Below are positions 1-51,500 of a stretch of DNA of 64,000 nt, in pieces. The DNA is from Cycas panzhihuaensis (lineage: Eukaryota > Plantae > Cycadophyta), in NCBI GenBank assembly GCA_023213395.1, contig CM041465.1, forward strand, positions 211,241,741-211,305,740, in the 5' to 3' direction. Within the stretch, counting starts at the first letter, position 1. Every line of letters starts with the position of its first letter. The position numbers and the translations under genes were made by a program. The notes beneath the pieces are model-generated. The model worked only from the letters and a program-made list of their open reading frames with translations, had not been told where the DNA came from and ran no database searches.

Positions 1-2779
1 CTTACAACATGTGTCTTTGTATCATGAAGTAATTTTAAAAAGTTGTGAGTAAATTATGCTTGATCCAAGTATGTATGTATAGATGCAACTTTGACTTTGT
101 TAATTGGAACATTGAGAAAAACTTAAATTTAAACTTTATCTTTTGTAATCTGTATGCTATCAACAATTGTCATATCATAAAATTCATTTTTGTCATATCA
201 GATTCATTCTCCATCATGTCATAGGATTCATTCTCCTCAAATAGAGATCAAATCCTTATGTAGCAAGTTGGTCCCGCATTTGATATGAATCTTCATTGGT
301 TTTATTATCATAATCCACATGTTCACTGTCTCACATGCTCAACAAAATAACATCAAATACAAGGAGGGTATCTCCCCATGAGTGGAAATTAAAATATCCC
401 AAATAGATTTAGAGGTCATTAATTCACAAACCTTTGAAAAACATCATCATGAATAGTACAAAATAATAATGCTAATGCTTCACTATCCTTTCTAATGTTT
501 TCCTTAATACTAACATCATAGTCATCTTACAAATATTTCCATAAATCATGCAATAAAATAGTTTTTATAATCTTGTGCCATTCTAAAAAATTTTGCCCAT
601 CAAATATAGGTAATTGTGCCATGTTATCAAAAAATATAGTATATAAAAATAAATATGCTCTTATCAAATCAAAAATCAATAAGCCAATGAACATATATGA
701 TTTCAAATAAATTTTTGAAAGAGATGTAATGCCTTTTAAAATGAATCAATCAATGCAATCTTTACAAGTGCAATAAGAAAATAATCTTTGCAATAATGAT
801 AAATGCTCTCAAATCAATAACTCGAAGAATGAAAAGTTTATATGATGTCAAATATACTCTTGAAAAGAAATATAATACATCAATGAATATATATGATTTT
901 AAATGAACCTTTTGATTTTTCAAATGGATAAATGTAAAACTTTCAATCAATAAATCCTTAGACTTCATAATAATATATAATATTGAAATTAAAATATATA
1001 TGAGTATTTTCACTTTGAAAATAATGATATGTAGAAATTCTTTAATAAAAAGTAATATACTCCTTAAAGCAAGGTTTAAAGGATAACCTCAAGTTTGATA
1101 GCTTCAAAGGTAGACTAAATGATATCAGAATAATATGAAACTTCACTAATATGAAAATAAATAAAATATAAATCCAATGAATTGACCATTTTGAAAATGG
1201 GTTCCTCAGAAGTCAAGATTTGATAAATCAAAAGTATAGGCCTCGCTTTAAGGCACAACAGAGCAGGGGCTCAAAATTGTATAAAATGGCAATAAAATAT
1301 TTAGAAAATATTGTAAAACAATCAAATATCATTTATAAGATTTATAAATATACTTTCAATTGAAAAAAATTAAAAAATTATATATAAAAAAGTGTAAATA
1401 TGGCAGGTTTAAAGCAATAAAGTACCTCTACTTTGAGTGATTTAAAAATTAGTAAAAATACATTAAAATGTATAAAAACCTATATCGATTGAAGAGAATT
1501 GAATTAGCTTCCACATGAAACTAATGGGACTAAATTTAGATGTCAAAGAGAAAAGTTATAGTGAAAATAGAAACTAGTACCTTTATAGTAAAATGATAAG
1601 AAAAATGTTAAAAACCACTAAAGTGCCAGTTTTGGTGATTAAAATAATGATAAAAATAAATTCTAAAAATTAAAATAAATACTTGACAGTAAATTTTATT
1701 GAATGTAGATCACTATGAAATAAATCTGGGTAGAAAATAGTCACCCGGTAATAAAATATAATCGATTAAAAATGATTTTGTAAAAAGTTTAAAATGGCTA
1801 AAAATGGATGATTGACTTTAAATCGATCAAACGGATGAAATCGACCAAATTGGTCATATGACCAACAAAATTAATCTACGAAATTTTTTGACCTAATGAA
1901 ATTGGTTTCGTTAGAAACAGATGCTTCAATGAGGAGTTATGGCAAAAGCAAACGCTAATAACCTTGTGTAGAATAAAAATTAAAAAAAAAGTTTATAAAA
2001 GTTTATTAGCCCCCTTTAAAGGTAGCTAACAGTCATATGCTGATTATGGGGGACTGGGGTTTGAGACCAAAGAGGAGATTAGGGTTTAAAATTCGAATTA
2101 AAAATTTTATTCGATTCAATTTAATTTTTTAAACTTAAGAAAATAAAAATAAAAAATAGCAAAAAGTGCTCAACGCCATCGTCAAGCTAAACCCGCTATC
2201 ATGGGCTGCCCGTCTTGAGCTACATGCACCCTTATGCATCAGCAAGAGAATCGGAGGAGACGAAGGTGAGAAAGCCGCAGGAGCAACCTTTGGCTTTGAG
2301 GAGTTTATTTTCAAGTGGTTTTTGAGGTTGTGTCTGTGTAGTCGTGCTCAGTTTTTTTCTATTGTTTTCTGTAGTAGTAATAATGGCCGAGGAGCAAGCC
2401 GAGTGAAAGCTTACTGGCATAGAGAATGGCTTGCAGTCGGTCTTCCTCAAAAACTCCAGAAGATAACTTTCCTTCTTTGATTTGGTTCCTGGGTTCTTTT
2501 TTTTTTTTAAGAAAAAACTTCTACAATTCCTTCAAAAACACAGAATTGAAAACAAATGTGTTTTCTTAACGATTTTCACCAGAGCACCTTCAGGATTGAG
2601 TTACTTTAGTCGTAATCACATTTAGACTAAAAAAACGTCATATTACACGTATGCGAAGGACTTTAAGCGGTGATGAGATCGAGCTCGGCCCACGTTTGAC
2701 GACGAAGGGCGAGAGACGAGGCAAAGACCGGCGATTGACTCGTTGGAGTGACCTCCACCCTATTCAATGTGAGTTATGT

Positions 2780-2878
2780 CATCTAATTCTTGAATATGCC
2801 GCAAAGGGTGAGATGTATAAAGAGCTTCAATTCTCTACATGTTTCAATAAAAGGCGAGCAACTACTTATGTTGCATCA
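2780..2878 (+). pseudogene. Aurora kinase gene fragment (kinase subdomain V region)
   Basis: Translates as HLILEYAAKGEMYKELQFSTCFNKRRATTYVAS, matching the plant Aurora motif YLILEYAAxGELYKELQKCKYFSERRAATYVAS. There is no flanking kinase sequence. Confidence 0.85.
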
Positions 2879-2953
2879 CCGCATAGATGTTGCTCTATGG
2901 TTCTTTGCTAAAGTTTCGGATCTAGTGTTTGCTACCTATTGTGATCTAGTACT

Positions 2954-3180
2954 ATTGAAGGTGTTGAACAACTTGCAGATGCAGTGAAGGTGATGATGGG
3001 ACCTAAGGATCACAATGTAGTTATTGAACAAAGCTTTGGTTCTCCAAAGGTCACAAAAGATGGTGTCACTATTGTAAAAATATTGAGTTCAAAGACACAA
3101 AGAAGAATGTGGGTGCAAGTCTTGTAAAGCAAGTTGCCAATGCAACCAATGATGTGGTGGAAATGGGAAAACATGTGCTA
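2954..3180 (+). pseudogene. Mitochondrial chaperonin HSP60/CPN60 N-terminal fragment with two 1-bp frameshifts
   Basis: From 2960 it reads [72 protein letters not shown]. This is the classic GroEL/HSP60 N-terminus, and [15 protein letters not shown] is the plant mitochondrial type. Confidence 0.93.
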
Positions 3181-3277
3181 ATAACCTTGCATAATGAATG
3201 ACTTGTTAAAAACTATTAGCATATTAGTATGTGTATTTTGTTTGTAATTTATAGAAATCCAAGCATGCACTTATTAG

Positions 3278-3372
3278 ATAAGAATGCAAAGAGGTGACGA
3301 GACTCTTTATGATGAGCTCTTCTCATATACCTATCCTAAATTTATTACACTATCGCCAGCTATGATGAGCCT
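3278..3372 (+). pseudogene. eIF3 subunit L gene fragment
   Basis: Reads IRMQRGDETLYDELFSYTYPKFITLSP, matching the eIF3L motif MxRMQxGDxxxYdELFSYxCPKFIT. It is preceded by TTATTAG. Confidence 0.8.
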
Positions 3373-3459
3373 AATAATGGCTTCTACTTCGATCAAAGGT
3401 AGGAGGCAAGGCCCAAAAAATGCAGGATGTAATAGGAAAGCGAGATGTGGCTAATAAAA

Positions 3460-4976
3460 GGGGCAATGTAGAAAGCAGAGTATAGAAACAATATGCCTTC
3501 TTTGGCCTACAAGATCAAAGACCAATAAAAATTTTGAGAATTTATTGTATTCCTTTTGTAAAGAATGAAAATAATTGATAGTTTTTGCACTCCTTTTCCA
3601 CAAATGAAAATGCTTATGTGCATGAGATGTCAAAAATATGTAATGTAAAACATATGAGAAATAAAATATCAATGTGAGGAGCATGGACACATTTTTCAAA
3701 TATCTTAAAGAAGATATATCGGATAAATAAAATATACATGTGTTTGTAATTGAAATATTTTCAAATCTATTGTAGATATATCGAAATATGAGTTTAGATC
3801 TAAAAAGGAAATCAAGAACTTGGAAAAAGTTGTAGCAGACTTCATCTGCTATATATATTGCTCCGAACATGAATATGCTTCAAAGATTATAGATCCGTAA
3901 AAGACTTGAAAATGTAGTCGAGAATATATAATGAAAAAATATAGATCTGAAAAGAAATATAGCAGATCTAAACTAAATATTGCAGATCTGAAATAACTAT
4001 GCGAGAAGATATTGTAATACTTCCTGAAAAAAGTAGATCTGAAGTAAAAACTAATAGATCTAAAAAAATATTAAATATTTGAACAGAATAAACCAGGAAA
4101 CTATCAAATATTTGATAGAAAGAGCAGATCTTAAAAATATAAGCGATCCAGAGAAAGCTATGGTGGATCTCAAGTAAAGATTATAGATCTTGAAGAAAAC
4201 CGTATGAATCTTGCATGCAACCGATCTCCTTTACGGATCCGTGAAAATATTAGATAAAATAGACAAATATACTTGTAAACTGTCAAATATGTAATAAAAA
4301 CTGAGATCCGAAAAAAATATTAAATATGAGAAAAACTTGAATATATATATCTTATCTTTGAAATAATGATGAAATATAAGATAAAATGTGTAGAATCAAG
4401 AAATATGGCTCAAATCTAAGAAAAACTTGAGCAAATATGGCTTCCTAACAAATCCTACATAGATCCGCACAAATCGAAAATAAACTCGAAAATTATTTGT
4501 TATATCACCAATATAACTCAATAATGATCAAAACTTGTGAAAACTTACGTAAAAATGAATGTAACCGAATATTTGTTCTTTGGAGTAAATCATCCTCAAA
4601 ATACCAATAACCTTCCTTCTTCTTCAAGAAAACTTCAATAATAGATCATGAACCTTCTCTGATACCAAATGTAGGAAAATATTGCAGGAGAACAGGTAAT
4701 ATAGAATAGAATCATATAGATCAATATTGCAATACATCAATGTAGTATAAATGAAAATGCATTATAGTGATTCCATTATAGTGAAGAGAGTTATAAATTT
4801 CTCAACTAAGGGCGATGTCTAAAGACACTATGGTTGCACACCCCTCAATATTTATAATTTAGGGAGGAGGAAAACTCTTCAACCCTTGAATTTAAAATAA
4901 TAATAAAATAATGTTAGCTTAACTCAAATGAAACTAACTTATATTAAAGTTAAACTTACCTTAACTTACCTCGACA
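3460..4976 (-). mobile_element. Partial LTR retrotransposon: 5' LTR (~4670-4976), tRNA-Met PBS and AGATCT-rich internal region
   Basis: TCTCTGATACCA at 4656-4667 (minus strand TGGTATCAGAGA) abuts a TG...CA segment at 4670-4976. The internal region has many AGATCT/AGATCC motifs. No second LTR was found and the left boundary is uncertain. Confidence 0.55.
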
Positions 4977-7900
4977 TATTGAGCATCACATATCTAAATT
5001 GAATTGATGAAGTGTACAATCACGGTTGGAAAGGTGGAAGTGGAGCGATGATGATTAACTCCAACAACTAGGATGATACTATTATTGAGCGAGGTATCAT
5101 ACAATATCCCCATATCATTTACTATTAGTCAATGGATGGAGGGATGAGTCTTGAATGGAAAAAATAGGCTCATCTAGCAAGGAATCATTAACAGTGTATG
5201 CGAAGGGTTGGGGATAGGGGCATTAGCCATTATTTGGCGACCATAATTCCTTTCTTTGATTTCCTATTAATAATCTAAAGATCAAATTCTTGAAGGAGGA
5301 TGGCCCACTTGCCACCCCACTACATCAAGTCGATTAGGTTAAAAGGTACCTCAAGGGATTGGATTGAATAATCACTTGAATAATGTTTCTAAGCAAGTAG
5401 TGCCTAAACTTCTTGGTGGCATACACCAAGGAAAGACATTCCTTCTCGGTAGGAGAGTAGTTGAGCTCGGCAACTAGAGTATGGTGATAAAGTAGATGGC
5501 TTTCTCGATCCACAGTCATCTTCTTGGGTGAGTATAGCCCCTAAGGATTTGTTGGTAGCTGAGGTATAAAGGATGAAAGGTTGATCAAGAGAAGAGGAGC
5601 CAAGGTCGAGGTGGAATCCAAGGCTCTTTCAATCTCTTTGAAGGCTTCCTAGGCTTTTGGAGACCAAAGGAATGGGACCTCTTTCTTTAATAGGTTGGTG
5701 AGGGGTTTTGCGTTTATGGCAAAGTTTGCCAAGAAACGCCTAAGGAATCCTAATCTGCCCAAGAACGACTTGATTTGTCGTTGAGTCTTGAGAGGAGACA
5801 TATCAAGGATTGCCTTGACTTTGTTAGGATCAATCTAGATTCCTTGTTTGAAATAAAGGAAACCAAGGAGTTCGATTGTCATAACAAACATACATTTAAG
5901 AGGGTTTAAGCTCACATGGTATTTGTGACATCTAGTAAAGATAGCTCACAAATTGCTAGGATGGTGGGCCCTTATATGAGAAAGACCTATCATATCATTC
6001 ATGAAAACCTCAAGGGTCTTGTTAATGAGGTCATGGAAGGTAAATTACATCGCCCTCCAGTGGCTGGCGCCTATATTCTTGAGCCTAAAGGGCATCGCTT
6101 TGTAAGTGAAGGTGGCCCAAAGAGTGGTGAAGGCCATTTTACGATGGTCTTCAAGAGAGATCTGGATCTAGTTATACCCAAAGAAGTCATCTATCAAGGA
6201 CATGACCTCAAATCCAATGGTTCAATCAATGAAGGGTAGAGGAAAGTTGTCTTTAGGACATGTGTTGTTAATGTCATGAAAATCAATATATATTCGAATT
6301 GTCTTATTCTTTTTAGTAATAGGAATGATGCTCGAGACATATTTGGGGTAGTCAATGGAGGAGATTAACCCCTTATTTAGGAGTTTCCCAACTTCCATTT
6401 TCATAGCAGTTAAAAGTTTAGGATGAAGATAGCATTATTTTTGCTCCATAGGCCAAGCACCCAAAATGGTAGTGAGGTTGTGGGTAATAATAGAAGGGTC
6501 TATTACCTTCATATTAGAGTAATCCCATGTAAAGATGTCGTAGAATTCCTAGAAAAGAAGGGTGTATTCCTTCATTTCTTCAGGGGAACATTCCACTCCC
6601 ACCTTGATGACCTTATCATGAGCAAGGATGATGTCCTTGGTTGCCCCCATGTACATGGCATTCCCTTCCTTGAAGTAAAGGGGGGCTCAATCAATAGGAG
6701 GACGAAGAAAATGAAGGTCGATTTGGGTTGACTAAGGGTGAACCAATGGCTAAAATCTTTTAGTAACTAAGTTTATGGTGACCAAGAGGGATATTGAACC
6801 ACGGAGCCCACTAAATGCTAAGGCCTCGTCATTCTCAAAGTAATCTATCCCATGGATAGTTCTACTTGGAGAAGGCGAAATGAGGAGTAAAAGGAGTAGT
6901 AGGGCCATAATAATCTACCCACCATTCAACATAGTTAGTAGACTCTTGGAAGAGTCGAAGGGTGATCTCCTATGATAGGTGACAAGAGGTTCCCTCCCAC
7001 CTCTCTCAAGGAAAGCGATGAGGAAGAAGATGAAGTGATATAGGGAGTCGCCAAGAGGCGGGGCAATAGTATGTGATTCAAGAGGAGGACTAAGCTCCTT
7101 AATGTAAGAGATCTTAGGTCGAGACACGAAATGAAGGAGTCCCCCTACTCATGTTCGGGAAGGATATAGGATGAGGGAGTTCCTCATCATCATTGTCAAA
7201 CTCATTATCACTTAGCATGACGAGGTACCCATAACTCCCTATACTAATAGGGGCAAAATATATAAGGTTAGAGGAAGAAGAGGAAGGGCCTTCTTCCAAA
7301 TAAGATGCACTAGGAATATCGATAGAACAAGTAGAAGTGTGAGTAGAGGGGCCCTTATCACCCTTCACCTAGTCACAAACTTCTTGATAGGGTTCATGGG
7401 ATTGCTTCATGGGAGGAGGCTCTAGGAAACAACCTTCATTCACTCTTCATGGATGATTCTAAGTTGCCCCAATGGGAAGAGCACATGGCTCCCATCTGGT
7501 CAAGCCATAGGTGTCCCAACACAATGTTGTAATCCACATTTATGTTGAGGACTATGATATTGACGATAGCTTTATCCTCAAGAGTGAGAGGAATGGAGAC
7601 TAACCCCCAAGGGTATCTTTTGCTACCATCGTAGTCTTGACAATGCCATGGGACTAGTTCGAGGCGATACACCTAACTCTTGCATTATCCAAGGGAATAG
7701 CATTAATGGAAGAATCATTATCTACAATAGTCCTTTGAAGGGTGCATTTAGGTGTGTCTATGGAGATGGTGAAGGGTAGTGCCATTGACATTCCCTTTCA
7801 TTGATTGGAGGGAGATTTTTAGGGTCGAATGAGATGATAGGTTCACGACTTGGGAAACACCCAAAGCATGAATGGGGGCGTCGCCTAGTCCTAAAGTCTC

Positions 7901-22593: not shown

Positions 22594-22673
<80 letters not shown>
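22594..22673. repeat. Compound (TA)n(GA)n microsatellite
   Basis: A perfect TA run at 22594-22630 is followed directly by an AG run to 22673. Confidence 0.97.
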
Positions 22674-26850: not shown

Positions 26851-29800
26851 TGTCATCTACCATTGGTGGGCGACTCCCTTTGGCCTAATAGGCCATACCT
26901 TGAGATGCATATCTAAGGGGGCAATCCTCCCTAGTCTCACTTCAAAAGGGAATTCACTAATGAGGTAAAACTATGTTGACAACCTTGGGCTTACATAGCC
27001 CCTTTTGAAAGCTAATCCATGTCGCTAAAGCTTCTCCCTTATGCTTTAATGAGAGCTTAAACTGCTACCATGCTTTGAAATAAGCTTAAACTACCTTTGT
27101 ATATTTGTATATATCAGACTAGGATATGGATTTCTTAGGTTGCACAACTCTTTTACATTCCATATCCTCGCCTCCTTTATTTCATCATCCTTTCTTTTAT
27201 TTGTATATTTCCTTTTTATGCAATAACTATATATAAAAAAAAAATAAAAAACAATAGACAACCCTTTCAAAATCTAAAAAAAAAAAAAAGAAGAATAAAG
27301 AAACCCAAAAAATCTTACTTTGAAAGATGGTCGCTAATGAGGTAAAATTATAGTGGCCCACTTGGACTCATTAAGACCTACTCCCCTTAGGTATTTGAGG
27401 CATTACTTCATGTATTCAAGGGGCTTTGGGCTTCTAAGCCATATTTTAGGACCACCCCATCCATTTGGCTTTCCATTGAGGCAACGCCTTAGTTGTTTGT
27501 CATACCCACATTTATGCATGCTTAAGACTCATAGCCATTAGATTTGAGATTGATATGGTCACTAAATCTTTGTCCCTCCTAGCTTGTGCACCTCTATTTT
27601 AAAGTCTATAAGAGGCTAAACTAAGGGACACCCTCCTCGATTCACTACTAATGAGGCACCACTATGGAAGCCACTTCTCCATGTGATTCATATGCATTTA
27701 ATTTTTATTATTTTGCATCTCATGTCATTTGTGTTGGCATCACTCATCGTCTTCTAACTTTAGATTAAAGAGGTTTTGGTACCAAGGGGGAAATGTTTCT
27801 TGGCTTCCAGGAATAGGATTTGGACATTTGACCAAGTAAGGTAAGTTTAGGTATGTTCTCTACCCCTCTTCACTCTTTATTTATTTATATTTGAGATTAT
27901 GTAGTCAACACATGTTCATTTACTTACTTGTTGGTTAGTTCATGTCCATATTTATATGTCGATGACGATCAGGACCTTGGTCCATAGCTCTGATGTCCAC
28001 CTATTGGTTCTCTTGCGTTGGAAAAGGTGCCTCCTAACCCTCTACAACTTATTTATTTCCCATTGTTATTTCATTTTCGTTTGTTTAGCCTTATTTCTAC
28101 CTTTCTCCCACTTGATACTGATTGGTTGCTGCTTATAGACCCATTATTTATGAATTTATTTCACTACATATAGAAATTAGTAAAAAAAAAAAGTCAACTA
28201 TGTTGCATTACTAATTAGTATTATGACTACATTAATGGTACCAGTAAAATATTTTATGGTACCATATACATGTTTGTGGTACTGTGAATAAATTTGCAGT
28301 TCAGTTGTCACCAACTCAAATTCAAGTTTAATGGTAACAATCAGCTCATAAATAAAGATCTATCAGTTTCGGTAGGCTGCGTTGGTTCCAAATCAGGTTG
28401 CATCTATATAAAGAGGCTAAACATGCCTCAAATCACGAATTTTTACCCATTTCAAAGATCAAATTCATCAAACCATGAGCAAGACTCATGGTTTTTGGTT
28501 AATGGTTTTCCCCACATTATGGGTAGAAAACCACCAACCCATAACCTTTTGTCCATTTATAAATCCCATCTTTTTTCCAAAGGAAAGGAGGGAAACATTT
28601 GGACAAGAGTTACTACGTCATTATACTACTAAAATTTTGCTAGAACACTAGCAATTGGGAGCAAAAAACTAGCTACCATTGGGGATATTGCAAGTAAGCC
28701 ATCACAAGCTATTAGAGAGTCCTTGGGAAGAGATTTCATTGCCATTGGCCCATCATTCCTTTTCAAGGTATAGGTAATCCACTCTTCCTTTGCTAATGTA
28801 GGCCTTCTTTCTCTTTTATTCCTTCATCTTATTCATATTAGGATGTGTGATTCCATGACGAGAATGTGCTAGTGGGTTTCTTTGTTGTTCATCATCTCAT
28901 TGCTTAAGTGAGTCAAGTCTCCTCTATGTTATTTTTCTTGTTCTTCTTTGGATTTCTTGAAAACGCGAGGTTCGAGGAGATTTCCTAAGTACAACTTAGG
29001 AAACCACTCATATTTGGGGATGGTTGCCATCTTGAGGCATCCTAACCCATCTCATTTAAATCTTCTTTTGCTTATAGATTGAAGATTATTATTTTTATGC
29101 TTTCCATCACTCTTTTTGTGAGTTACACATATGATTGAATGTTATTAGTTATCTTATGGATCTCTTTCTTTTATGAGCTACCAATTCGTATGTAGGAAGG
29201 GAAACAATAACTCTCAAGGTCATCCTTTTTGCATATTTACTTAAAGAAAAAGGCTATAATAATTTCTCACATCGATTACCTTTCAAAGAGGTAAGCTTAA
29301 AGTTTATTTTGTCGTGTCTTTCTTTTGACTTAACAATTTTTGCTTCTCCATTTTATATCATAGAGACCTTCAACAAGCATAAATGCTACTAAAATTCTCT
29401 TAGATGTAAGTAAGTATTAGTCCCCATTTTTCTCATTACACAAGAGGCATCATGGTTCATGGGATAAGGCTATCGCTACTTTTATTGGACTATGGTTATT
29501 TCACTTGCCGAGGAGTCCTCTTCCCAAATCACCCACAAGCTTTTGGTGTAACAAAGAACTCGCAAGTGGTATCGAGCCCAAGTTCAAGGTTCAAATGCCA
29601 TGCATATATCGACAAAGCCCTTTCCCCATTGAGGTCCCCATGTACCCTTATTTAGGTGGAATTGTAACACAAGAAATATGTGCTCTGGTAGCCTCCTTGT
29701 CACGGAGAGTGTTGGACTATGGCTAGTTCACTTCTTGAGGAGTCCTCTTCCCAAATCACTGCGGGCTTTTGGTGTAATGACAAGTCATAACTTTGGCATT

Positions 29801-31059
29801 CGCTTCTTGGGTACATATCATCATTTCTTTTAGCTTGTTGACGCCATTTTTTTTCTTTAAAAAAAGGACAAGAAAAATAAAAGAAAAAAAAAAGGGGGGG
29901 GGGGGGAAGAAAGAAATTATAAAAAAAAGAAGAAGAAGAAAGGAAGAAGTAAAGGAAAGAATCTACTTAGTTTGCCTAGTTCCTTTTTTTCCTTTGTTTA
30001 TTTTTAGATAAGAAAAAGACAGAGAGAGTAGGAAAAGGAAATGATTTAATTTAGTTAGTTTATCATCATTATCTTTCCCCTCATTTTTCTCCTACATCAA
30101 AAAAAAAGAAAGAAAAAAGAAGATCAATTGCATCACATTCTTCTTTATTTACATTTGCATATCTATTGCATTGCATTTTTAGAGTTGGGGGTTAAATAAA
30201 TAGGTTGCATACTAGGTTTCAAACCTAAAACATAAGGAGGGATTGTATTAACACGAGTCCCGAATCTAAAAGGGTATGATGCAAACCCATTAATAATATA
30301 TTAGGTATATTCATCCAAATTAAAAAGAAAAAAGAAACGCATAGTTGCATTCTAGGAGTGTATCACATTTCCCCTTCTTTCATCATAGACACCATTTCAC
30401 GTCCAAAGGCCACCGATTCCTCTTGATGCACATGTGCCTTCATTTGAATGCCCTTAGTTTAGCCTCTTAGGCAACGAGGAATGGCTTTCCTTGTATATGC
30501 GCCGAGTAGTGCATAGGTGCCCTTTATTGGTGTCTTAGGATTCATTGCACACATGTAGGCCCCATACCCTAAGTCTATCGCCATTTAGTTGTAATCATCT
30601 TAAGTCATCCTGTAAGAAGTATTTTAATATATTTCATAGAAAAGCGATATAGTGGTAGGATTACAAAGTTATAATTTAACATAAATACTCATTTAAATTT
30701 ACATAGTTGTATAACTATTCATTATGGGAAAAACTATCATCTAAAGATAAATCTTATAATTTATACAAAATGTAAAATTATAAATGTGTAGTGTGAGGAC
30801 ATCATTATAAAAATTATTATTGAGGTGTTATTATTAACTTTTTAGATAACATTACCTAAGTTATCATATAAACATGATTCTTACACCACATGTGGAAATA
30901 ATTCAAGTAGACTATTGGATATATTTTTAAAATTATTATGACATTAGTGATATTGAAGATAAAATTTTAAAAGAAATAAAGTAGGGCATCTAGTGGGATA
31001 ATAACAACAACAATTTATTAGATGAAATAGGAATCTTTTCATGGTAAGTATATGCCATG

Positions 31060-33740
31060 GACCCTATTCATAATATAATATAATATGGATGACTTTTGCT
31101 TAGGGAGTTATGGTCATCACAAAATTTGTGTGATATGAGATAAATTGTTTAAAAGAAAGTGCATCTTGAAAGTGATATAAATAATCTATATTTATAAACA
31201 ATTGAGTACAAATTTCATATAAATTATGGAAAGTTATATAAAGCATAGATTTATTATAATTATGTATAAAAGTCTTATAAAATCAGATAAATTGTGGAAA
31301 AATAATTACATCTTGAAAGTTAATGAAAAATTAGTTCATGTTAATAATATTAGCTAAAAATAATATAATATGATGACGTCTGCCAAGGGATTGTGGTTGT
31401 TGTAAAATTCATGTAATGTGAGATAAATTGTTGAAAAAAAGTGCATCTTGAAAGTGATATAATATGCTTATATTTGTAAGTAATTAAGTACCAATGTTAT
31501 ATAAATTGTGGAAAGTTACATAAAGTCTATGTTTATTAGTAATTAACTACAAAAGTCTTATAAAATTAGATGAATCATGGGAAAGATGTGCATCCTGGAA
31601 CCTAATGAAAAACTAGTTCATATTAACAATTAATTAGTTTAACATAATATAATATGGATGATTTTCTGAAGGAGTTGTGGTTGTTGCAAATTTCATGTAA
31701 TATGGGATAAATTGTTGAAAGAAAGCGTATGTTAAATGTTAATAAAAAATTAATTCATAATAACAATTAATTAGCCAAAAGTAATATAATATAATATGGA
31801 AATTTTTTATTAAGAGGTTGTGGTGATTGCAAAAATCATGTAATATATGAGATAAATTATTAAAAGAAAGTGCATCTTGAGTGATGTAAAAGTCTATATT
31901 TATAAGTAATTAGATATAAATATCATATAAATTGTGAAAAGTTATATGAAGTTTATGTTTATTATTAATTACTTATAAAAATCTTATAAAATTAAATGAA
32001 TTAAAAGGAAATGCATCTTGAAGTTAATAAAAATTAGTTCATGTTAACAATTATTTAGCTAAAAATAATATAATATAATATAGATGATTTTTGCCAAGAG
32101 GCTATGGTCAACGCAAAAGTCATGTAATATATAAAATAAATTATTAAAAGAACGTGCATTTTGAAAATCATGTAAAGAGTCTATATTTACAAGTAATTTG
32201 GTATAAATGTCACATAAATTATAGAAAGTCATATAAAGTCTATGTTTATTACTAATTACTTACGAAAGTCTTATAAAGTTAGATGAATTGTGGAAAAGAA
32301 TTATATCTTGAAAGTCAATGCAAAATTAATTCATGTTAACAATTAATTAGTCAACATTAAAATAATATAATATGGACGATTTTTGTAAAGGGGTTGTGGT
32401 CATTGTAAAAGTCATATAATATGAGATAAATTGTTGAAAGAAAATGCATCTTCAAAGTGATATAAAAAGCCTACATTTATAAGTAATTAGGTACAAATGT
32501 CATATAAATTATGGAAAATTATATAAAGTCTATGTTTATTACTAATTACCTAGAAAAGTCTTATAAAATTAAATGATTTATGGAAAAGAAGTGCATGTTT
32601 GAAGTTAATGAAAAATTAGTTAATTAATTTAACAATTAATTAGCTAAAAATAATATAATATAATATGGACTATTTTTGCCAAGGAGTTGTGGATGTGCAA
32701 AAAGTCATGTAGTATGAGATACATTGTTAGAAAAAAAATGTATCTAAAAAGTGATGTAAAGAGTTTATATTTATAAGTAATTCAGTACAAATACCATAAA
32801 AATTGTTGAAAGTTCTATAAAGTCTATGTTTATTACTAACTACCTACAAAAGTCTTATAAAATCAGAGAAATTGTGGAAAAGAATTACATCTTGAAAGTT
32901 AATGAAAAAATAGTTTGTTCTAACAATTAACTAGCCAAAATTAATATAATATAATATGAATGATTTTTGTTAAAGAATTACCATGATTACAAAAGTCACA
33001 TGATATGAAATAAATTATTGATAGAAAACACATCTTGAAAGTGATATAAAAAGCCTATATTTATAAGTAATTGAGTAGAAATGCCATAAAAATTATATAA
33101 AATCTATGTTTATTATTACTATTTTTTTTTTTTTTTTTTATTAGCGAGGAGGGGACTCGACTCACGCACACAACCGGAAGAAGGCCGGGCTTACACGCCC
33201 AGAGCCCTTTCGGCCGACCCGTGGGTTGAGAGACGCCATTCTCCCCCGGCCACACACACTCACCCCTATACCCCATCCTCGAGCTCCGGGGGTATAATCC
33301 TTTAACGTCCGTGCCGTCTACCACCGCAGCCGCTAGCAACAACACCTGGACGGTCCCAAGGACACCGCAGCGACAAGGCTCCCGGGCTCGAACTTGAGGT
33401 TTATTATTACTAATTGGTTACAAAAGTCTTATAAAATATTCCTATTAAAAGGTGCTTAAGGACAACTTGTATGAACTACCTAAGTTTTTCTAATGGCTTA
33501 TGAATTATAAAAGAAGATGCATCATGAAAATTAATCAAAATTAATTCATATTAACAATTAATTAGTTAAAAATAATATAATATAAACATTTTTTTATTAA
33601 AGAGACTTTAGTAGTTGCAAAAGTCATGTAATATAAAATTGCATGATATAAAGAGTCTATATTTATAAGTGATTGGGTATCAAAGTTATATAAAGTATAT
33701 GTTTATCACTAATTATCTACAAAATTCTTATAAAATCAAA
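31060..33740. repeat. AT-rich tandem array, ~284-293 bp unit, about 9 copies (one half-length)
   Basis: The AATATAATATGGATGA-type anchor recurs near 31084, 31369, 31653, 31795, 32079, 32371, 32664, 32955 and 33584. Each unit has GCATCTTGAAAGTGA and AAAAGTCTTATAAAAT blocks. Confidence 0.93.
33122..33398 (-). mobile_element. 5'-truncated tRNA-derived SINE with poly(A) tail and 14-bp TSD
   Basis: The TSD GTTTATTATTACTA is at 33108-33121 and 33399-33412, with T18 at 33122-33139. The minus strand starts CTCAAGTTCGAGCCC (Pol III B box) with no A box. The body is GC- and CpG-rich inside an AT-rich array. Confidence 0.88.
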
Positions 33741-33811
33741 AATTTTGTGTGTGTTCTCAGATCGAGAAGGAGAAAATCATTCGGAGGCATTCAAATTGAG
33801 TGATTGGCAAG

Positions 33812-36800
33812 ATGGATCTGCTGAAATTGAAACTGTTGTTTCTTCTATTCACCTTTGCAATTCCCTTTTCGTCCTCATCGCCTCCATCTCATCCGCATTC
33901 CCATCCCCACCTCAACAACGCTACCGATCAACACTCTCTTTTGCAATTCAAGGCCAAAATCTTTTACGACCCCCAAAATGTATTGCTCCACTGGAATCCC
34001 AATCGCACTGCATTTTGCAATTGGACCGGAGTTACTTGCAGCCCAAGGAGGGACAGGGTGGTGCTTCTCAACCTCGCAGATATGGCTCTCCAAGGTTATC
34101 TCTCTCCTTTCCTCGCCAATTTGTCATTTCTTCGTCAATTACGGCTTCGCAATAATAGTTTTTATGGAGATATTCCGCCAGAATTTGGGCACCTTCGTCG
34201 GTTGAGAAAGCTTTTCCTTTCGTATAACCCTCTGAGCGGACGCATTCCCTCTGAACTCGGCCTCCTCACCAATCTAGAGGTTCTTGCGTTGAGATCAAAT
34301 AGCCAGACAGGTACCATTCCCTCTTCCTTGGCCAACATCTCGTCCTTGACTCATTTGGAATTGGGTACAAACAATTTGTCCGGCGTCATCTCCCCTGCAT
34401 TCGGAACACTCGCCCACTTGAAAGTGTTCCACATAGTGCAAAGCCGAGTGTCAGGGAGCATTCCCTCTTCGTTGGCAAATATCTCCACTTTGATTGACTT
34501 GGATCTTCGTTCAAATCACCTCAGCGGTGTCATTCCTCCCCAATTCGGTCGTCTTACAAATCTCAACTCGCTTACCTTGTACCAAAACTACTTGGGAGGA
34601 TCAATTCCTTCTTCCCTATCCAACTGCACCTCTCTCAAAATTCTGTCTTTAGCACAAAACGATTTAGTTGGACGCATTCCATCGGAGTTGGGCTACAAAC
34701 TCCCCAACCTTCAACAAGTTTATCTGTGGACAAATCGGTTGAGTGGCAACATTCCAAACTCTTTTGGCAATTGTTCCCAACACACAATACTCGACCTATC
34801 CCAAAATCAGCTGAGCGGGATGGTGCCAATAGAGCTGGGTAAGTTGGCTCTCCTTCAATCGCTTCTTTTGTGGGGAAATCAACTTGTTAGTGGAAGCGGT
34901 ACCGAATGGCCCTTTCTTACACATCTCACCAATTGCTCCCTCTTACAACTGTTAGATTTGGACCAGAATCGACTGACTGGCGTTTTGCCTTCTGTTATAG
35001 GCCAGTTTTCTACCAAACTCTCCTCCCTAGGCTTAGGACACAACTTTATAGGAGGAACAATACCCCAGCAGATTGGCAATCTAACCAACTTGACATTCCT
35101 GGCTTTGGATCACAATCTCTTCAGCGGCAGCATTCCATCGGAATTCAAAAGACTCCAAAAGCTGGAAAGATTGGATTTGAGCGACAACAAATTAGAAGGG
35201 AGCATCCCGAGCGAGATGGGTGAACTGCAAAGCTTAGGACTCTTGTCACTTGAGGAAAACGTGCTCTCTGGACCAATTCCCCCTTCTCTTGGTCATCTCC
35301 AGCAACTCAGAAGGCTTTATCTTTCGAAAAACCAATTATCAGGAAACATACCTGCAGCTCTTGGCAACTGTTGGCGTCTGGAACTGCTCGACCTGTCCTA
35401 CAACAGACTTCATGGAAACATACCGCCAGAGGTTGCGGGTCTACAAAATCTACTGTTCTATTTCAACCTCTCAAGCAATTCCCTCCAAGGCTCCCTCCCC
35501 CCCGAGATTGGTAAAATGGTAATGACTCAAGCCATAGACATCTCTGCCAATCGGCTGTCTGAATTCATTCCAACCACACTTGGAAGCTGCGCAGCGTTAG
35601 AGTACCTGAATCTATCTCATAATGCCTTGCAAGGTCCAATTTCACTTTCACTCGGAAATATAAAAGGTCTCCGAGACATGGATCTCTCTTCCAACAAGCT
35701 GTGGGGTACAATACCAAAGTCTCTGGAGAAACTCCATATGCTTACGCACCTGAATTTCTCGTACAACAACCTCACTGGAGAAGTTCCAAAGGGAGGGAAT
35801 TTTGCAAATTTTAGTAATGCATCATTTATGGGAAATCCCAGACTCTGTGCACCATGGATACACTTGCCTGCCTGTCCCAATTCCACCCCTTTGAAACAAA
35901 CAGGGCATTCGTCTCTCAAAAGAGTAATACTACCAATTGCAAGCGTTGGTGTTTTTATTCTCTGCTGTTTACTCACAGGATTCTTTTGGAGCAGGAAGAG
36001 TCTACATCTCCCAAAAACCTTTGCATTAAAACGGGAGCTCCCTATTATTTCGTATCAACAAATTACCGAAGCGACTGACGGATTTAGCGTGGGCAACCTG
36101 CTTGGAGTCGGTAGTTTTGGATCAGTCTATAAAGGGATTTTAGGGGATGGCACAACGATTGCAGTCAAGGTTTTTAATTTGCAGGATGAAGAGCGCAATG
36201 GAAGTTTCAAAAAGGAATGCGAAGTATTGAGGAGAGTTCGTCACCGGAACCTTGTTAGAATTGTGACCTCGTGTTCCACCCTTAATTTCAGAGCGTTGGT
36301 CCTTCAATTCATGGCAAAGGGAAGCTTGGAAAAGAATCTGTATCCTGATGACACGAACGAAGGTGAGGATGGGAATGGTTGTTCATTGAACTTGCTCAAC
36401 CGATTGAACATTTCCATAGACGTAGCCCACGGCATGCAATACCTGCATCATGATTGCCATGTTCGAGTTCTGCATTGCGATCTAAAGCCGAGCAACGTGC
36501 TTTTAGATGACGACATGACAGCACACATTACCGATTTTGGCCTGACTCGAATTATTTGTCCCACCTCTGAGGATTCCTTCACTTCAACACTGCGAGGATC
36601 CATCGGGTACATCGCCCCAGGTTTGGTTTTTCGGTTCAAATCATCAAAATGCTATCTCTCTTTTTTCCCTCGTGTATTTCATAAGTAGAATGAAACTTTA
36701 AAGATGATGGCTTGAATACAGAGTACGGATTAGGACGAAGGGCTTCAACGAAGGGGGATGTTTACAGCTATGGCATTCTGTTATTGGAGATGCTGACCAG

Positions 36801-37185
36801 AAGAAGGCCCAGCAGTGACATGTTTGTAGGAGGACTGGACCTGCACAAGTGGGTGACCATGGCATTTCTTGAGAGATTGCTGGATGTTATCGACGGTAGC
36901 CTCCTGACAGACGTGAGTGAGGAAGGAATAGACGGGCATAACGTGCACAAATGTCTTAGGAAACTCATACTCGTGGGTTTGTTGTGCACAAAACAATCAC
37001 CTGAAGAAAGACCAAATATGAGAGATGTGGCGGGACTGTTGGAGAGTATCAGAGCAACATTTCTTGGAGTAACAAATAGAGGGGCTTTCAATTTACCGGC
37101 AGATATATCGTCCTTGTTAGATAGTAGAACTGTAAGACAGAACAATGGAGGAGCATCTGATAGCCAAACTTCCTCCACACAGTAG
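33812..37185 (+). CDS. LRR receptor-like Ser/Thr kinase, subfamily XII (EFR/XA21-like), non-RD; join(33812..36620,36722..37185), 1090 aa
   Basis: Signal peptide, then the LRRNT FCNWTGVTC, ~24 plant LRRs and the TM segment VILPIASVGVFILCCLLTGFFW. Kinase motifs GVGSFGSVY, VAVK-like IAVK, HCDLKPSN and DFG are present. GYIAP|EYG is split by the conserved phase-1 GT-AG intron. The frame is open throughout. Confidence 0.95.
36621..36721 (+). other. 101-bp GT-AG intron in the kinase domain
   Basis: CCAG|GTTTGG...ATACAG|AGTAC; splicing restores GYIAPEYG. Confidence 0.93.
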
Positions 37186-37838
37186 TTCATGTGTAGGAAA
37201 CATCAAATCCATTTTCGCATACTGCTGCTGCGTGAAACAGAACTGGCACAATTATCTGCTGTTGTGATAATGTAAGATCCCGCTCTGTTTTATGTGATCT
37301 CACCCAGGAAATATCACAAGAAATTATCATCTATATTGGTTGATGCATCCACGCAATCCTTTTGGATCGGTATTTGTTACATCTAAGCGCATTAATTAGT
37401 TTATAAAACTAAGGCTATGCAGTTATATCTCTTAACAGACACCACAAAATAGTTATTCATCAGTCGACCGTAGGAGCAGCGAAAGTAGACTGCAATCGAC
37501 TGTGGGAGCAGGGGGCTGCATAGTTTTCAAAGTTTACAAAATGAACATGCTACAATAAGAAATATTAAATTTACTAACAATAACAACGAACGAGTGGCTG
37601 GAGAAGGCTAAAATAAAATAAAATTATAGGCATTGAGTTGAGCAATCTACGTTAGGGCTGTTCGACATTCCAGATGACTCTTGTGTACAACAAGAAGGTG
37701 AAGCAGTAGTAGAAATTGTAAGGGTTTCTATGGCCAAGTCTAATGCTTTTGTCAACTAGAAAATACCTTAAATATGATCTTACATAAATTATGATTACAA
37801 ATTTATGCTATGATCATTGTTTCAAAGTGTGCACCTTC

Positions 37839-38106
37839 TAAATCTTTGTTGGGGTGAAATTTGGGATATTGTGCTCACAAATGATTCACTATATGCTTGG
37901 TAAGAGTGAACCCCTTGTAAATCCTTGTTGAGGTGAAATTGGGATATTGTGCTCATGAAAGATTCACTATATGCTTGGTAAGAGTGAACCACTTGTAAAT
38001 CTTTGTTGAGGTGAAATTTGGGATATTGTGCTCACGAAAGATTCACTATATGCTTGGTAAGAGTGAATCCCTAATCTCTCAATATGCTTGGTAAGAGTGA
38101 ACTCCT
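37839..38106. repeat. 78-79 bp minisatellite, 3 copies plus a partial copy
   Basis: TAAATCTTTGTTGAGGTGAAATTTGGGATATTGTGCTCA...ATATGCTTGGTAAGAGTGAA starts at 37839, 37918 and 37996; the partial copy is at ~38082. Confidence 0.93.
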
Positions 38107-48520: not shown

Positions 48521-51500
48521 GGAAGTGAGTTAGAGAGCTCATGGAGGCCTGTGAGGAGCCTCAAGGGATGTGATCCCTGTGAGAGAGATCACACCGACTG
48601 TGAGATGGTACCCCAGTGAGGCGGTAGTAGAGTAGGAGATATGTACATGATTTAACGGGAAAGCACGGGCCTCTAGGGGGTCATATGTAGAGTCATATGA
48701 TTGTACCCCCTCTACAAGGATACTGGCTTCCCATATGTATGATGTAACATATGATTTTGATGTATATATATATATATATACGGGTAATTGAAACCCCATT
48801 TGACATGAGATGTCGTGTATATATCGTGTGGTAGATAGCATATATATTTTGTTTTGTATGTTGTAAATGTTATGTTTTAAATGTTTTATTGTATGATGCA
48901 CATATTTCCTTCCATGCATGGCTATATATACCTAACAGAGCACACACATCCACCATGAGTAGGGCGATAGAGAGGTGTGAGGTTAGAAATATAGCGACAT
49001 GCACGTCCATGGGGAAGCATAGCGGAATATGCAAAGGAAACAACAGTGTGAGAGAGGAGTAATGGCACTCTAAAGTGTCGCCCTAATTGGGGATGCCCAA
49101 GTAGGAAGACAAAAGGTTCCCAAGGGATACAGAACACGGGTTCCGCATGAGGAACCGTATGAAAAGAGATAATCCATCTTAAATGGCCATCCTACCCATG
49201 GTTGGGAAGAATGGGAATAACCTAAGATGGTAATTTAGGCTCATTTCGAGCGTGGTGATGGGATTGCCGGAAGATCATGCATAAAACTTCTCAAGGAATT
49301 TCCCGTTATCACTTTCTCAAATTCAAGCCCTTCCGTGGTGGCTATCTATAAGCATCACCGAGGGTCTCGATAATGATGAAAGGGCCAACCCGTCGGGGTT
49401 TGAATTTGGTCAAACGATCATGGAGATATTTAAGCTTGAGGACGTGGTCCCCAGGAAACAAAGGATAGGAACGAAGATGTTTATCGTAGGTCCTTTGTAA
49501 GCAAGCTTTGGGTGCTAGGTTAGCCTGATAAGCAGCTAAGCGTCTCTCGTCTAAAGCTTCGAGGTCCAACAGGTGAGCCTGACAGATAGACTCTTCGTCA
49601 ATGAGACCTTTGAGGGAGACTCGTAAAGAGGGAATCTCCACCTCCAGCGGGAGTACTGCCTCGGTACCGTAGACCAGGGAGAATGTGGTCATTCCCGTGG
49701 CGGAACGAATAGAGGTGCAGTAAGCCCACAAAGCGAAAGGCAACTGAAGGTGCCAATCCTTTTCAGATTGAGCAATGGTTTTCTTTAGGATACTGACGAG
49801 AGTCTTATTGAAAGACTCCACTTGGCTATTTTCCTGAGGATAGTAAGGAGAAGAAGTTTTGTGAGAAATCTTGAACTTCTCGCAAAGCTCATACATCTCC
49901 TTATTACAAAAGGGGGTTCCATTGTCGGTGATTAGGACGTCTGAACTCAAACAACAAATGATGTACCGTAAACGAATGTGGCTATCGCTTTAGCAGGAGT
50001 AGTGATCAAGGGAATGGCCTCCACCTATTTGGTAAAATACTCTGTGGCAGTCAAGATAAACTTGTGCTGCGACGACGAAGGTGGAGAGATAGCTCCAATG
50101 AGGTCTAGTCCCCACTGAGCGAAAGGCCATGGCAAAATAATAGGGTGAAGGGCCTCGAGAAGGCACATGGGAGATATTGGCGTGTTCCCGACATCGCCAA
50201 CATCTCAAAGCAAAGGCGGCGCCCTTGAAAAGGGACACCAAAATAACCCATGCGAGGATCCTCTAAGCCATAGATCGGCCCCAAAGTGACCTCTACAAAT
50301 ACCATGGTGGCATTCACAGTATTTGGTCGGCTTTGTCGGCGGTGACGCAATGTAGAAGGATCCTCGAAGGACCTCTTGTACTACTTCACCGACGAGGAAG
50401 TATTACCCGCGTAAGTCCGGATGCGAGATCTAACTTTACTACTAGCATCGGGTGGTATTACTGCGTGTGAGATACCACACTATATCACTATACCATCCAT
50501 TGTCGATGAGTGGATGAGGAGAGGTACCACGAATCGTCAAGATAGACTCATCAGGGAGAGAATCATCGATGGGGGCACCAAAGGAGTTAGGAATAGGGGC
50601 ATCTGCAAGCTGCTTGGCCACTACCATTCCCTTCTTTGATTTCCGGTTAACGATATGAAGGTTAAATTCTTGAAGCAGATCGGGGCCCGAAGCCCTACCC
50701 TTCAAATTTAAACGAGTGAGCAAGCATCGTAACGGATCAGATTGACGATCACCTTGGTGGTGTTGCCAAGCAAGTAGTGTCCGAACTTCTTGGTCGCATG
50801 GTCCAAGGAGAGACACCCTTCTCGGCAGAAGAATAGTTAACTTCAGCACCACGAGGGTGTAACTAATAAAATATATGACTCTCTCGCCTCGAGTCATCCT
50901 CTTGAGCTAACATAGCGCCCAAGGATTCGTCAGTCGCCGATGTGTATAGGATGAAGGGCCTATCGAATCGAGGAGGTGCCAGTGTAGAAGCGGAAACAAG
51001 GGCTTCCTTTAGTCCTTCGAAGGCCTTTTGGGTCTTGTCAGACCAGGCAAAAGGGGCTCCCTTCTTCAATAGGTTTGTAAGGGGTTTAGCACTTACAGCG
51101 AAGTCTGCTAAGAAGCGCCTGAGAAAACTGAGCCTACGTAGGAACGACTTAATCTATCATTGGGTCCTAGGCGGCGGCATGTCAAGGATTGCCACGACCT
51201 TGTTAGGTCAATTTGAATTCCTTATTTGGACACGAGGAACCTAAGGAGTTTGCCCGAGGTAATGGTAAACACGCATTTGAGCAGATTTAAACCGACATGG
51301 TACTTGTGGCATCGTGAAAGATGGCCCATAAGTCGAGGGATGATGGGCCCCACGATACGAGAGGCCCATCATATTATCCATGAAGACCTCCAATGTGTTA
51401 TCAATGAGGTCGAGAAGATGAAATGCATGGCTCTTTGGTAAGTAGCACCTATATTCTTAAGGCCAAAGGGTATTTCTTTGTAAGCAAAGGTACCCCATGG

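What the first reader, a model, noticed from the sequence alone, without database searches (positions are those of the whole stretch)
2780..3372. Cassette of captured fragments from three unrelated housekeeping genes (Aurora kinase, mt-HSP60, eIF3L)
Seen: three 95-225 bp coding fragments, all on the + strand, separated by only ~75 and ~100 bp, with no remainder of any parent gene. Known: Pack-MULEs, Helitrons, CACTAs and some LTR elements stitch together multi-gene fragments. Inference: this is the cargo of an uncharacterised gene-shuffling element. It could yield chimeric transcripts or siRNAs against essential mitotic, chaperone and translation genes. No carrier termini could be identified, so the mechanism is open.
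Basis: partly seen in the sequence, partly recalled or inferred. Interest (0 to 1): 0.8.

Follow-up and report, generated by a model that had tools for sequence, protein, structure and literature searches.

The report
Transposon-amplified mosaic of mRNA fragments
This is a decayed copy of a repeated DNA element in a gymnosperm genome that holds scraps of at least five genes joined end to end, likely copied from spliced RNA by a retrotransposon's reverse transcriptase jumping between templates, which is a known way for plant genomes to shuffle gene pieces.

Summary
The pieces are plant Aurora-alpha (2771-2901), mitochondrial HSP60 (2958-~3190) and eIF3L (3277-3372). The second 'spacer' is a fourth donor (3185-3275), and a fifth lies upstream (2301-2399). 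The Aurora piece runs straight across an intron site conserved in plant-type genomic loci; the HSP60 piece very likely does too. So capture was most likely from spliced RNA. Sister copies with the same junctions occur in DNA of three other organisms at 85-96% identity, so the cassette was amplified as a unit. A polypurine tract followed by TGTAG at 3456-3471, where read-contig depth steps up, suggests a 3' LTR in the cargo's orientation. No 5' LTR, PBS, TIR, Helitron end or poly(A) was found. Best reading (0.55): the decayed 3' remnant of a non-autonomous LTR retroelement that gathered mRNA scraps by template switching, like maize Bs1, nested in an older LTR element. All three coding pieces are frameshifted here. 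Multi-fragment capture by gymnosperm TEs is in print (PMC13477047). Interest 0.4.

The parts
2301..2399 (+). Donor 5: likely 5' UTR plus start codon (ATG at 2383, M-A-E-E-Q) of an unnamed gene
   Evidence: X24 contig (379 nt) aligns 2335-2399 with 6 other letters and 3 gaps; its loose end still resembles 2305-2334 and it runs on into other sequence after 2399. Sense orientation and 5' UTR status are inferred.
2400..2770 (+). Unassigned GC- and CpG-rich cargo region, shared with sister copies
   Evidence: Overlapping DNA contigs cover 2297-2822 in X1, X3 and X4; one X3 contig joins 2633 to 2743. CpG o/e 0.93 over 2191-2770. No Pfam hit.
2771..2901 (+). Aurora-alpha kinase fragment: starts at an exon start, crosses the conserved intron site at 2866|2867 with no intron, frameshifted near 2879
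2902..2957 (+). 56-bp linker of unknown origin, present in sister copies
   Evidence: Bridged by contigs in X2, X3 and X4
2958..3190 (+). Mitochondrial HSP60 (CPN60) fragment, collinear with the transcript; likely crosses intron sites at 3007|3008 and 3165|3166; -1 frameshifts near 3076 and 3157
   Evidence: X24 contigs 2958-3157 with 14 and 28 other letters; intron sites are indirect
3185..3275 (.). Donor 4: 91-bp piece of an unnamed transcript, UTR-like, orientation unresolved
   Evidence: 1324-nt X24 contig aligns with 6 other letters and no gap, and runs on into unrelated sequence on both sides
3277..3372 (+). eIF3 subunit L fragment, frameshifted at 3354-3358
   Evidence: X24 contig 3284-3372 with 7 other letters and 4 gaps
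3456..3466 (+). Candidate polypurine tract, directly before TGTAG
   Evidence: Sequence; 15 of 2000 shuffles of 3373-3700 give such a pattern, pattern defined after seeing it
3467..3689 (+). Candidate 3' LTR (TGT...ACA); right end uncertain
   Evidence: Summed contig depth 17-50 at 3410 against 1120-2974 at 3520; no second copy in 1-3400 or 3800-6000
1192..2190 (.). AT-rich very-high-copy repeat arm; link to the cassette unproven
   Evidence: Depth up to about 55,000 in 1401-1800; 2201-2300 has depth about 1 and no listed contig bridges it
3690..4976 (-). Host LTR element: LTR 4670-4976, tRNA-Met-type PBS 4657-4667, 5' UTR with degenerate repeats
   Evidence: Sequence. The PBS type is recalled; the UTR repeats are.
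1..1191 (-). Likely continuation of the host element: UTR and a decayed Copia-like gag start near 622
   Evidence: Read-through translation resembles Copia gag from recall; Pfam gave no hit

Best explanation
This is a decayed, multi-copy cassette of at least five gene fragments that is likely the 3' remnant of a non-autonomous LTR retroelement, whose reverse transcriptase likely switched between co-packaged spliced mRNAs and so stitched the pieces together. SHOWN: the identities; joined order shared with sister copies in three other organisms; loss of the Aurora intron relative to plant-type genomic loci; no poly(A) or TSD per piece; frameshifts private to this copy. INFERRED: (1) host mRNAs were packaged with the element's RNA; (2) reverse transcriptase jumped onto them at short microhomologies, in several rounds; (3) the chimeric element was then retroposed in trans many times, before or across the split of the sampled species; (4) this copy landed in the 5' UTR of an older, opposite-strand LTR element, lost its 5' LTR and PBS, and decayed. 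I put about 0.8 on RNA-level capture and about 0.55 on the whole statement with an LTR carrier.
For: Splicing: 68 of 78 fetched Aurora loci held the motif, giving 37 distinct contexts. Of these, 26 have GT directly after the RRAAT-equivalent codon, 9 run through (7 fully open, transcript-like; 2 genomic, GC-rich) and 2 have AT. In 14 of 15 loci checked, a 73-288 nt GT..AG intron was followed by Y[VI]AS. The window reads through at 2866|2867. HSP60: a transcript-type X3 contig (depth 6.44) has aligned pieces ending near 3008 and starting near 3004, and an X4 contig ends near 3008, while X24 transcript-like contigs and the window run through (table 3). Two angiosperm gene models break at NDVAGD|G. 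The three named donors are all sense. Amplified as a unit, counting contigs with 31 or more letters each side among the listed pieces: upstream/Aurora in X4; Aurora/linker in X2, X3, X4; linker/HSP60 in X3; donor 4/eIF3L in X2, X3, X4; identity 85-96%. Window-to-transcript differences are alike (about 7-10%) for all five donors. Carrier: PPT-like tract plus TGTAG in the cargo's orientation (15 of 2000 shuffles), with a depth step there. HSP60 and donor 4 overlap by at least 2 nt at 3185-3186. Precedent: PMC5131818, PMC13317346.
Against: No second LTR and no PBS upstream: 16 of 100 shuffles reach the best score against 1-3400. The TG..CA pair with a 5-bp repeat (1192/3689) arises by chance in 24% of shuffles. 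The PPT pattern was defined after seeing it; window-wide it occurs 3 times against 2.75 expected, and the other two matches lie in coding-like DNA. Depth is not copy number, by the tool's own warning. The HSP60/donor 4 and eIF3L/downstream junctions are crossed by only about 20-26 and 13-18 letters on the short side, below the 31-letter rule. No genomic donor from the host lineage was read; the Aurora intron there is inferred from other plants. Two X2 contigs are intronless HSP60 copies with transcript-type letters, so retrocopies exist that a DNA-level mechanism could have drawn on. Depth falls towards the 5' side, which also fits LINE-type truncation. Donor 4's orientation is unresolved.
Confidence: 0.55

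Rival explanations
1. DNA-level capture: a Pack-type TIR element, a Helitron or break-repair 'filler' copying picked the pieces from pre-existing processed pseudogenes, and the repeat arm at 1192-2190 is the carrier's left end.
For: The arm is very high copy. Intronless HSP60 copies, and longer Aurora and eIF3L copies, exist as DNA in X2, X3 and X4. PMC13477047 reports that all major TE superfamilies capture exons in the plants surveyed.
Against: No inverted partner for the arm: 5 of 60 shuffles reach the score; blastn finds none in 64 kb. No CTRR site with a strong nearby hairpin among 8 candidates. At least two donors would both have to come from retrocopies, and the three named pieces are all sense. 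No listed contig links the arm to the cargo across 2201-2296.
Confidence: 0.2
2. A LINE-type reverse transcriptase made the chimera by template jumps during target-primed reverse transcription and re-mobilised the chimeric RNA; copies share a 3' end and are variably 5' truncated.
For: Spliced sense cargo. Summed depth falls from about 1000-3000 at 3500-3700, to hundreds in the cargo, to 10-50 at 2300-2760. No 5' LTR was found.
Against: No A-run longer than 6 between 2770 and 3900. A PPT plus TG pattern sits at the depth step.
Confidence: 0.15
3. cDNA scraps were patched into double-strand breaks inside an existing TE, which then amplified them; capture was independent of the carrier's own reverse transcription.
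For: It fits spliced, short pieces with microhomology. The mechanism is recalled from yeast and mouse work; one search listed no direct plant case that I read.
Against: It predicts random orientation, but the three named donors and probably the fifth are sense.
Confidence: 0.08
4. Independent retrocopy insertions, or an assembly chimera, happen to lie side by side.
For: None found.
Against: Junctions recur in three other organisms. The longest flank repeat for each of the 5 pieces is 4 nt, and there is no poly(A).
Confidence: 0.02

Closest known systems
Maize Bs1 LTR retrotransposon (passages in PMC13317346 section 4 and PMC5131818)
   Same: Partial exonic pieces of several unrelated genes in one retroelement; copies in related species share the switch points.
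   Different: Bs1 has three donors, an LTR frame, 1-5 copies and a translated chimeric ORF. Here there are at least five donors, apparently many more copies (depth-based, rough), no paired LTRs in this copy, and broken frames.
LTR-mediated multi-parent retrocopies (Tan et al. 2016, PMC5131818; passages read)
   Same: Partial mRNAs, several parents (up to four genes plus an Alu in one mouse case), microsimilarity at the joints, secondary retroposition.
   Different: Described in animals with both LTR ends. Here the host is a gymnosperm, only a candidate 3' LTR is seen, and microsimilarity is shown for 2 nt only.
TE-captured gene fragments in gymnosperms (PMC13477047; section 12 and passages read)
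   Same: About 400,000 captured coding fragments per gymnosperm genome; 13.68% of host TEs carry two or more; Gypsy and Copia examples.
   Different: That survey matched single exons with BLASTN at E 1e-40. In the passages I read it did not test splicing within multi-donor cargo or describe this family. Supplements were not read and may list such cases.
Pack-MULE, Pack-CACTA and Helitron cargo (PMC13317346 section 4; terminal features recalled)
   Same: Multi-gene fragments amplified by a non-autonomous element.
   Different: These capture genomic DNA and have TIRs or TC/CTRR ends. The cargo here lacks an intron and such ends were not found.

Membership tests
LTR-mediated multi-gene retrocopy (Bs1 type) | Cargo is partial, spliced mRNA | tested here: met
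   Aurora intron absent; HSP60 indirect
LTR-mediated multi-gene retrocopy (Bs1 type) | Several parent genes with switch points shared between copies | tested here: met
   Five donors; 4 of 6 junctions bridged by 31 or more letters each side in at least one other organism
LTR-mediated multi-gene retrocopy (Bs1 type) | Two matching LTRs flank the cargo | tested here: not met
   No second copy of 3467-3700. So this copy is said to work like Bs1 and is not filed as a proven member.
LTR-mediated multi-gene retrocopy (Bs1 type) | PPT before a 3' LTR starting TG | tested here: inconclusive
   Candidate 3456-3471; 15 of 2000 shuffles, post hoc pattern; depth step
LTR-mediated multi-gene retrocopy (Bs1 type) | PBS after a 5' LTR | tested here: inconclusive
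   None recognised by eye on + in 1192-2770; no tRNA library was at hand for a formal test
LTR-mediated multi-gene retrocopy (Bs1 type) | 4-6 bp TSD around TG..CA | tested here: inconclusive
   5-bp repeat at 1187-1191 and 3690-3694; chance 0.24
LTR-mediated multi-gene retrocopy (Bs1 type) | Microsimilarity at switch points | tested here: inconclusive
   At least 2 nt at HSP60/donor 4 (7 if HSP60 continues as in its homologues, inferred); 1-2 nt at others
LTR-mediated multi-gene retrocopy (Bs1 type) | Transcribed from the LTR | not testable with these tools
   No RNA run of the host was listed
Pack-MULE / Pack-CACTA | Terminal inverted repeats | tested here: not met
Pack-MULE / Pack-CACTA | Genomic capture with introns kept (recalled) | tested here: not met
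Pack-MULE / hAT | 8-10 bp TSD | tested here: inconclusive
   8-bp repeat at 1192-1199 and 3605-3612; chance 0.80
Helitron | 3' hairpin followed by CTRR (recalled) | tested here: not met
   8 CTRR-T sites examined; best fold -3.7 kcal/mol, AT-only stem
LINE-mediated retrocopy | 3' poly(A) and TSD | tested here: not met
   an old tail could have decayed
LINE-mediated retrocopy | Variable 5' truncation among copies | tested here: inconclusive
   Depth gradient only

The most novel reading that the evidence does not exclude
A gymnosperm non-autonomous LTR family acts as a serial mRNA collector. It holds five to seven donors in about 1.1 kb, was amplified to hundreds of copies across several species, and has nested subfamilies that record the order of capture. 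An earlier form may have carried a longer open Aurora-linker-HSP60 frame like Bs1, or may still feed small RNAs against the donor genes.
Probability: 0.25. Interest if true: 0.6.

Novelty: new member of a known kind. Interest (0 to 1): 0.4.

Why it matters
Gymnosperm TEs are reported to hold hundreds of thousands of gene scraps, but in the passages I read the capture route for multi-donor cargo is left open. This locus gives a clean, testable case that the route was RNA: the cargo is spliced and sense, comes from at least five donors, and was then copied as a unit across species. A family like this would let one order and date capture events and test whether many copies of Aurora, HSP60 and eIF3L pieces put silencing pressure on essential genes. 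It does not reveal a new mechanism, and this copy looks dead.

Tried and rejected
No whole genome is held, so the suggested genome BLASTN was replaced by public-run contigs. No run holds the window itself: the best share of words was 0.18 among 24 listed runs. No RNA holder was listed. X24 is only guessed to be RNA and comes from another organism; 6 of 6 of its contigs laid on 2741-3460 run on into other sequence, so no chimeric transcript was seen there, which says nothing about expression in the host. No joint rows appeared for an empty insertion site or for introns; only about half of each deep run was read. Scans for the repeat arm found nothing in viral or metagenome contigs. The 103-aa open frame 2600-2908 found no word-sharing protein of 56-181 aa, and its upstream half had no real match in the representative library. 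Rfam and ARAGORN found nothing in 1-6000. Pfam found nothing in 1-662, 2101-2762 or 27001-30602. The 8-bp repeat at 1192/3605 was rejected as a TSD (chance 0.80). A second PPT-like match at 27006 (-) did not validate the motif; it lies in decayed pol-like DNA. The arm 1150-2300 has no inverted partner; its direct score against 3373-4700 was reached by 2 of 60 shuffles, which I put down to shared AT-rich composition. The idea that the opposite-strand host LTR element captured the cargo itself was rejected on orientation. (bacterial promoter scan) was uninformative. Earlier-findings look-ups returned nothing. Six literature searches (two used cycad terms as an untested lineage guess) listed no paper on this family; this covers only the open library.

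Full report
1. Observation. Six-frame translation shows the three pieces at the stated place, all on +. PDB searches name them Aurora kinase (E 2e-5), HSP60 with mitochondrial chains on top (E 5.6e-13; the second frame also hits chaperonins) and eIF3L (6 of 6 hits, E 3e-4). Plant homologues refine this. The Aurora piece is Aurora-1/2 type. The HSP60 piece matches plant CPN60-1/2 mitochondrial at 76-85% (best 120 of 894 listed). Full-length HSP60 and Aurora proteins find no further remnant in the window; eIF3L was not tested window-wide. The host is a gymnosperm: the window's LRR kinase is 47-61% identical to Ginkgo, pine, Taxus and Cryptomeria proteins, against 36-47% for angiosperms (best 120 of 6043). 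I did not narrow it further.

2. More donors. No genome is held, so I laid contigs of public runs on the region at 80% likeness. None of the 24 listed runs holds the window itself (best share 0.18). Contigs of X24, a run only guessed to be RNA, from organism B, cover 2958-3157 (two HSP60 paralogues, 14 and 28 other letters, one gap each), 3284-3372 (eIF3L, 7 other letters, 4 gaps) and 2784-2828 (Aurora, 4). They also cover 3185-3275 (a 1324-nt contig, 6 other letters) and 2335-2399 (a 379-nt contig, 6 other letters, 3 gaps). Each runs on into its own sequence beyond the match. Only the 56-bp linker and 2400-2770 stay unassigned. Differences from the nearest transcript-like contig are about 7-10% for all five, which suggests capture within one broad period; these figures include the distance between species.

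3. Amplified as a unit. DNA contigs of organisms A, B and C bridge the junctions. Identities run from 85 to 96%. The HSP60/donor 4 junction (X4 3051-3210) and the eIF3L/downstream junction (X4 3225-3385) are crossed by fewer than 31 letters on one side. That is 4 of 6 junctions met and 2 partial; 525 and 23,284 further pieces were not shown. Sister contigs have letters put in at 3075, 3157 and 3354-3358, so those frameshifts are not shared by all copies. Cargo varies: one X3 contig joins 2633 to 2743, and some X4 and X2 contigs carry longer Aurora or eIF3L pieces. Summed depth in cargo bins reaches hundreds to about 1200, against 3-8 for most listed single contigs. The tool warns that this is no copy number, so I take it only as 'many copies'.

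4. The cargo is spliced. A metagenome scan with a plant Aurora returned 78 loci; 68 held the motif and collapse to 37 distinct contexts. Twenty-six have GT right after the RRAAT-equivalent codon; three of these are divergent or frameshifted. Nine run through, of which 7 are fully open reading frames (transcript-like) and 2 are GC-rich genomic contexts lacking this intron. Two have AT. In 14 of 15 loci checked, a GT..AG intron of 73-288 nt led to the next exon. The window reads through at 2866|2867. Against the closest transcript (L007) the piece spans 2771-2901 and begins at the exon start. These loci carry no taxon labels; I call them plant-type from sequence, and the intron in the host's own gene is inferred. 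For HSP60, table 3 shows one X3 contig (depth 6.44) with transcript-type letters 15 letters from an end at 2994, 6 at 3009 and 9 at 3012, which implies two aligned pieces meeting at about 3004-3008; an X4 contig also stops near 3008. That is what an intron at 3007|3008 would give, but I did not see the intron letters. Two angiosperm gene models break at NDVAGD|G, hinting at a second crossed site at 3165|3166. Against this, two X2 contigs with transcript-type letters cross 3007|3008, so free HSP60 retrocopies exist as DNA.

5. The carrier. No piece has poly(A) or a flank repeat longer than 4 nt. There are no TIRs and no Helitron end. Eighty-three bases after eIF3L comes a purine tract (3456-3466) followed by TGTAG; 15 of 2000 shuffles of 3373-3700 give such a pattern, though I defined it after seeing it and the window-wide count equals chance (3 against 2.75). 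Summed depth is 17-50 at 3410, 11-373 at 3436 and 1120-2974 at 3520, as expected where an LTR begins. A possible end is ACA at 3687-3689. No second copy of this LTR lies in 1-3400 or 3800-6000. The TG..CA pair with a 5-bp repeat (1192/3689) and the 8-bp repeat (1192/3605) are both within chance (0.24 and 0.80). The whole lies inside an opposite-strand LTR element with LTR 4670-4976 and a Met-type PBS at 4657-4667 (type recalled). A decayed gag-like frame starts near 622; its Copia resemblance is recalled and Pfam gave no hit. That element's orientation rules it out as the captor under template switching.

6. Mechanism. Most likely the element's reverse transcriptase switched onto co-packaged mRNAs in several rounds, and the chimera was retroposed in trans. 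This copy later lost its 5' end and decayed. Spliced cargo, shared junctions and the absence of per-piece hallmarks are shown. Packaging, template switching, the LTR identity and the 5' loss are inferred. The rivals are DNA-level capture from retrocopies (0.2), LINE-type mobilisation (0.15) and cDNA patching of breaks (0.08).

7. Known systems. PMC13317346 (outline and section 4 read) describes Bs1 with three donor genes and template switching in plant LTR elements. PMC5131818 (passages) gives the microsimilarity model, multi-parent retrocopies and secondary retroposition. PMC13477047 (section 12 and passages; supplements not read) reports about 400,000 captured fragments per gymnosperm genome, with 13.68% of host TEs holding two or more. 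Other papers were seen as search listings only. Six searches listed no description of this family. It works like Bs1; it is not filed as a proven LTR retrocopy because paired LTRs were tested and not found in this copy.

8. Verdict. A real, decayed member of a multi-species family carrying at least five mRNA-derived fragments. It is a new member of a known kind, and a good test case for RNA-level capture in gymnosperms. Interest 0.4.

Noticed in passing
window 33800-37185 (+): Apparently intact LRR receptor-like kinase: a 962-aa open frame plus a downstream kinase exon; nearest listed proteins are gymnosperm.
   Followed up: partly
window 31070-33750: Degenerate tandem array of about 290-bp units with 59-bp sub-repeats, ending directly upstream of the LRR kinase.
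   Followed up: no
window 1192-2190: Very-high-copy AT-rich repeat of unknown class, with internally repeated motifs; some relatives skip 1947-2135 or 2004-2100.
   Followed up: partly
window 5040-7800 (-): Decayed Gypsy-like RT/RNase H region (read by eye from the translation printed), interrupted near 4976 by the LTR of the host element; similar to 50581-51377 at 69%.
   Followed up: no
window 1-1190 versus 3690-4668: The two presumed halves of the host element's leader differ strongly in CpG o/e (0.10 against 0.94) and in depth, so they may not have been adjacent; a deletion may have removed part of both host and carrier.
   Followed up: partly
window about 2420-2460 and 3480-3600: Further X24 contigs give depth here, possibly a sixth and seventh donor or TE transcripts; the pieces were not listed.
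   Followed up: no
window 53573-55002 (+) and 57456-58454 (-): Long Gypsy-like gag/protease/RT open frames (identity read by eye).
   Followed up: no
window 22594-22672; 37826-38072; 52040-52481 and 63255-63648: An (AT)n(AG)n microsatellite; three 78-bp tandem units; a 238-bp repeat pair at 90% identity 11.2 kb apart.
   Followed up: no
L023-L025: GC-rich genomic Aurora loci that lack the otherwise conserved intron after the RRAAT-equivalent codon.
   Followed up: no
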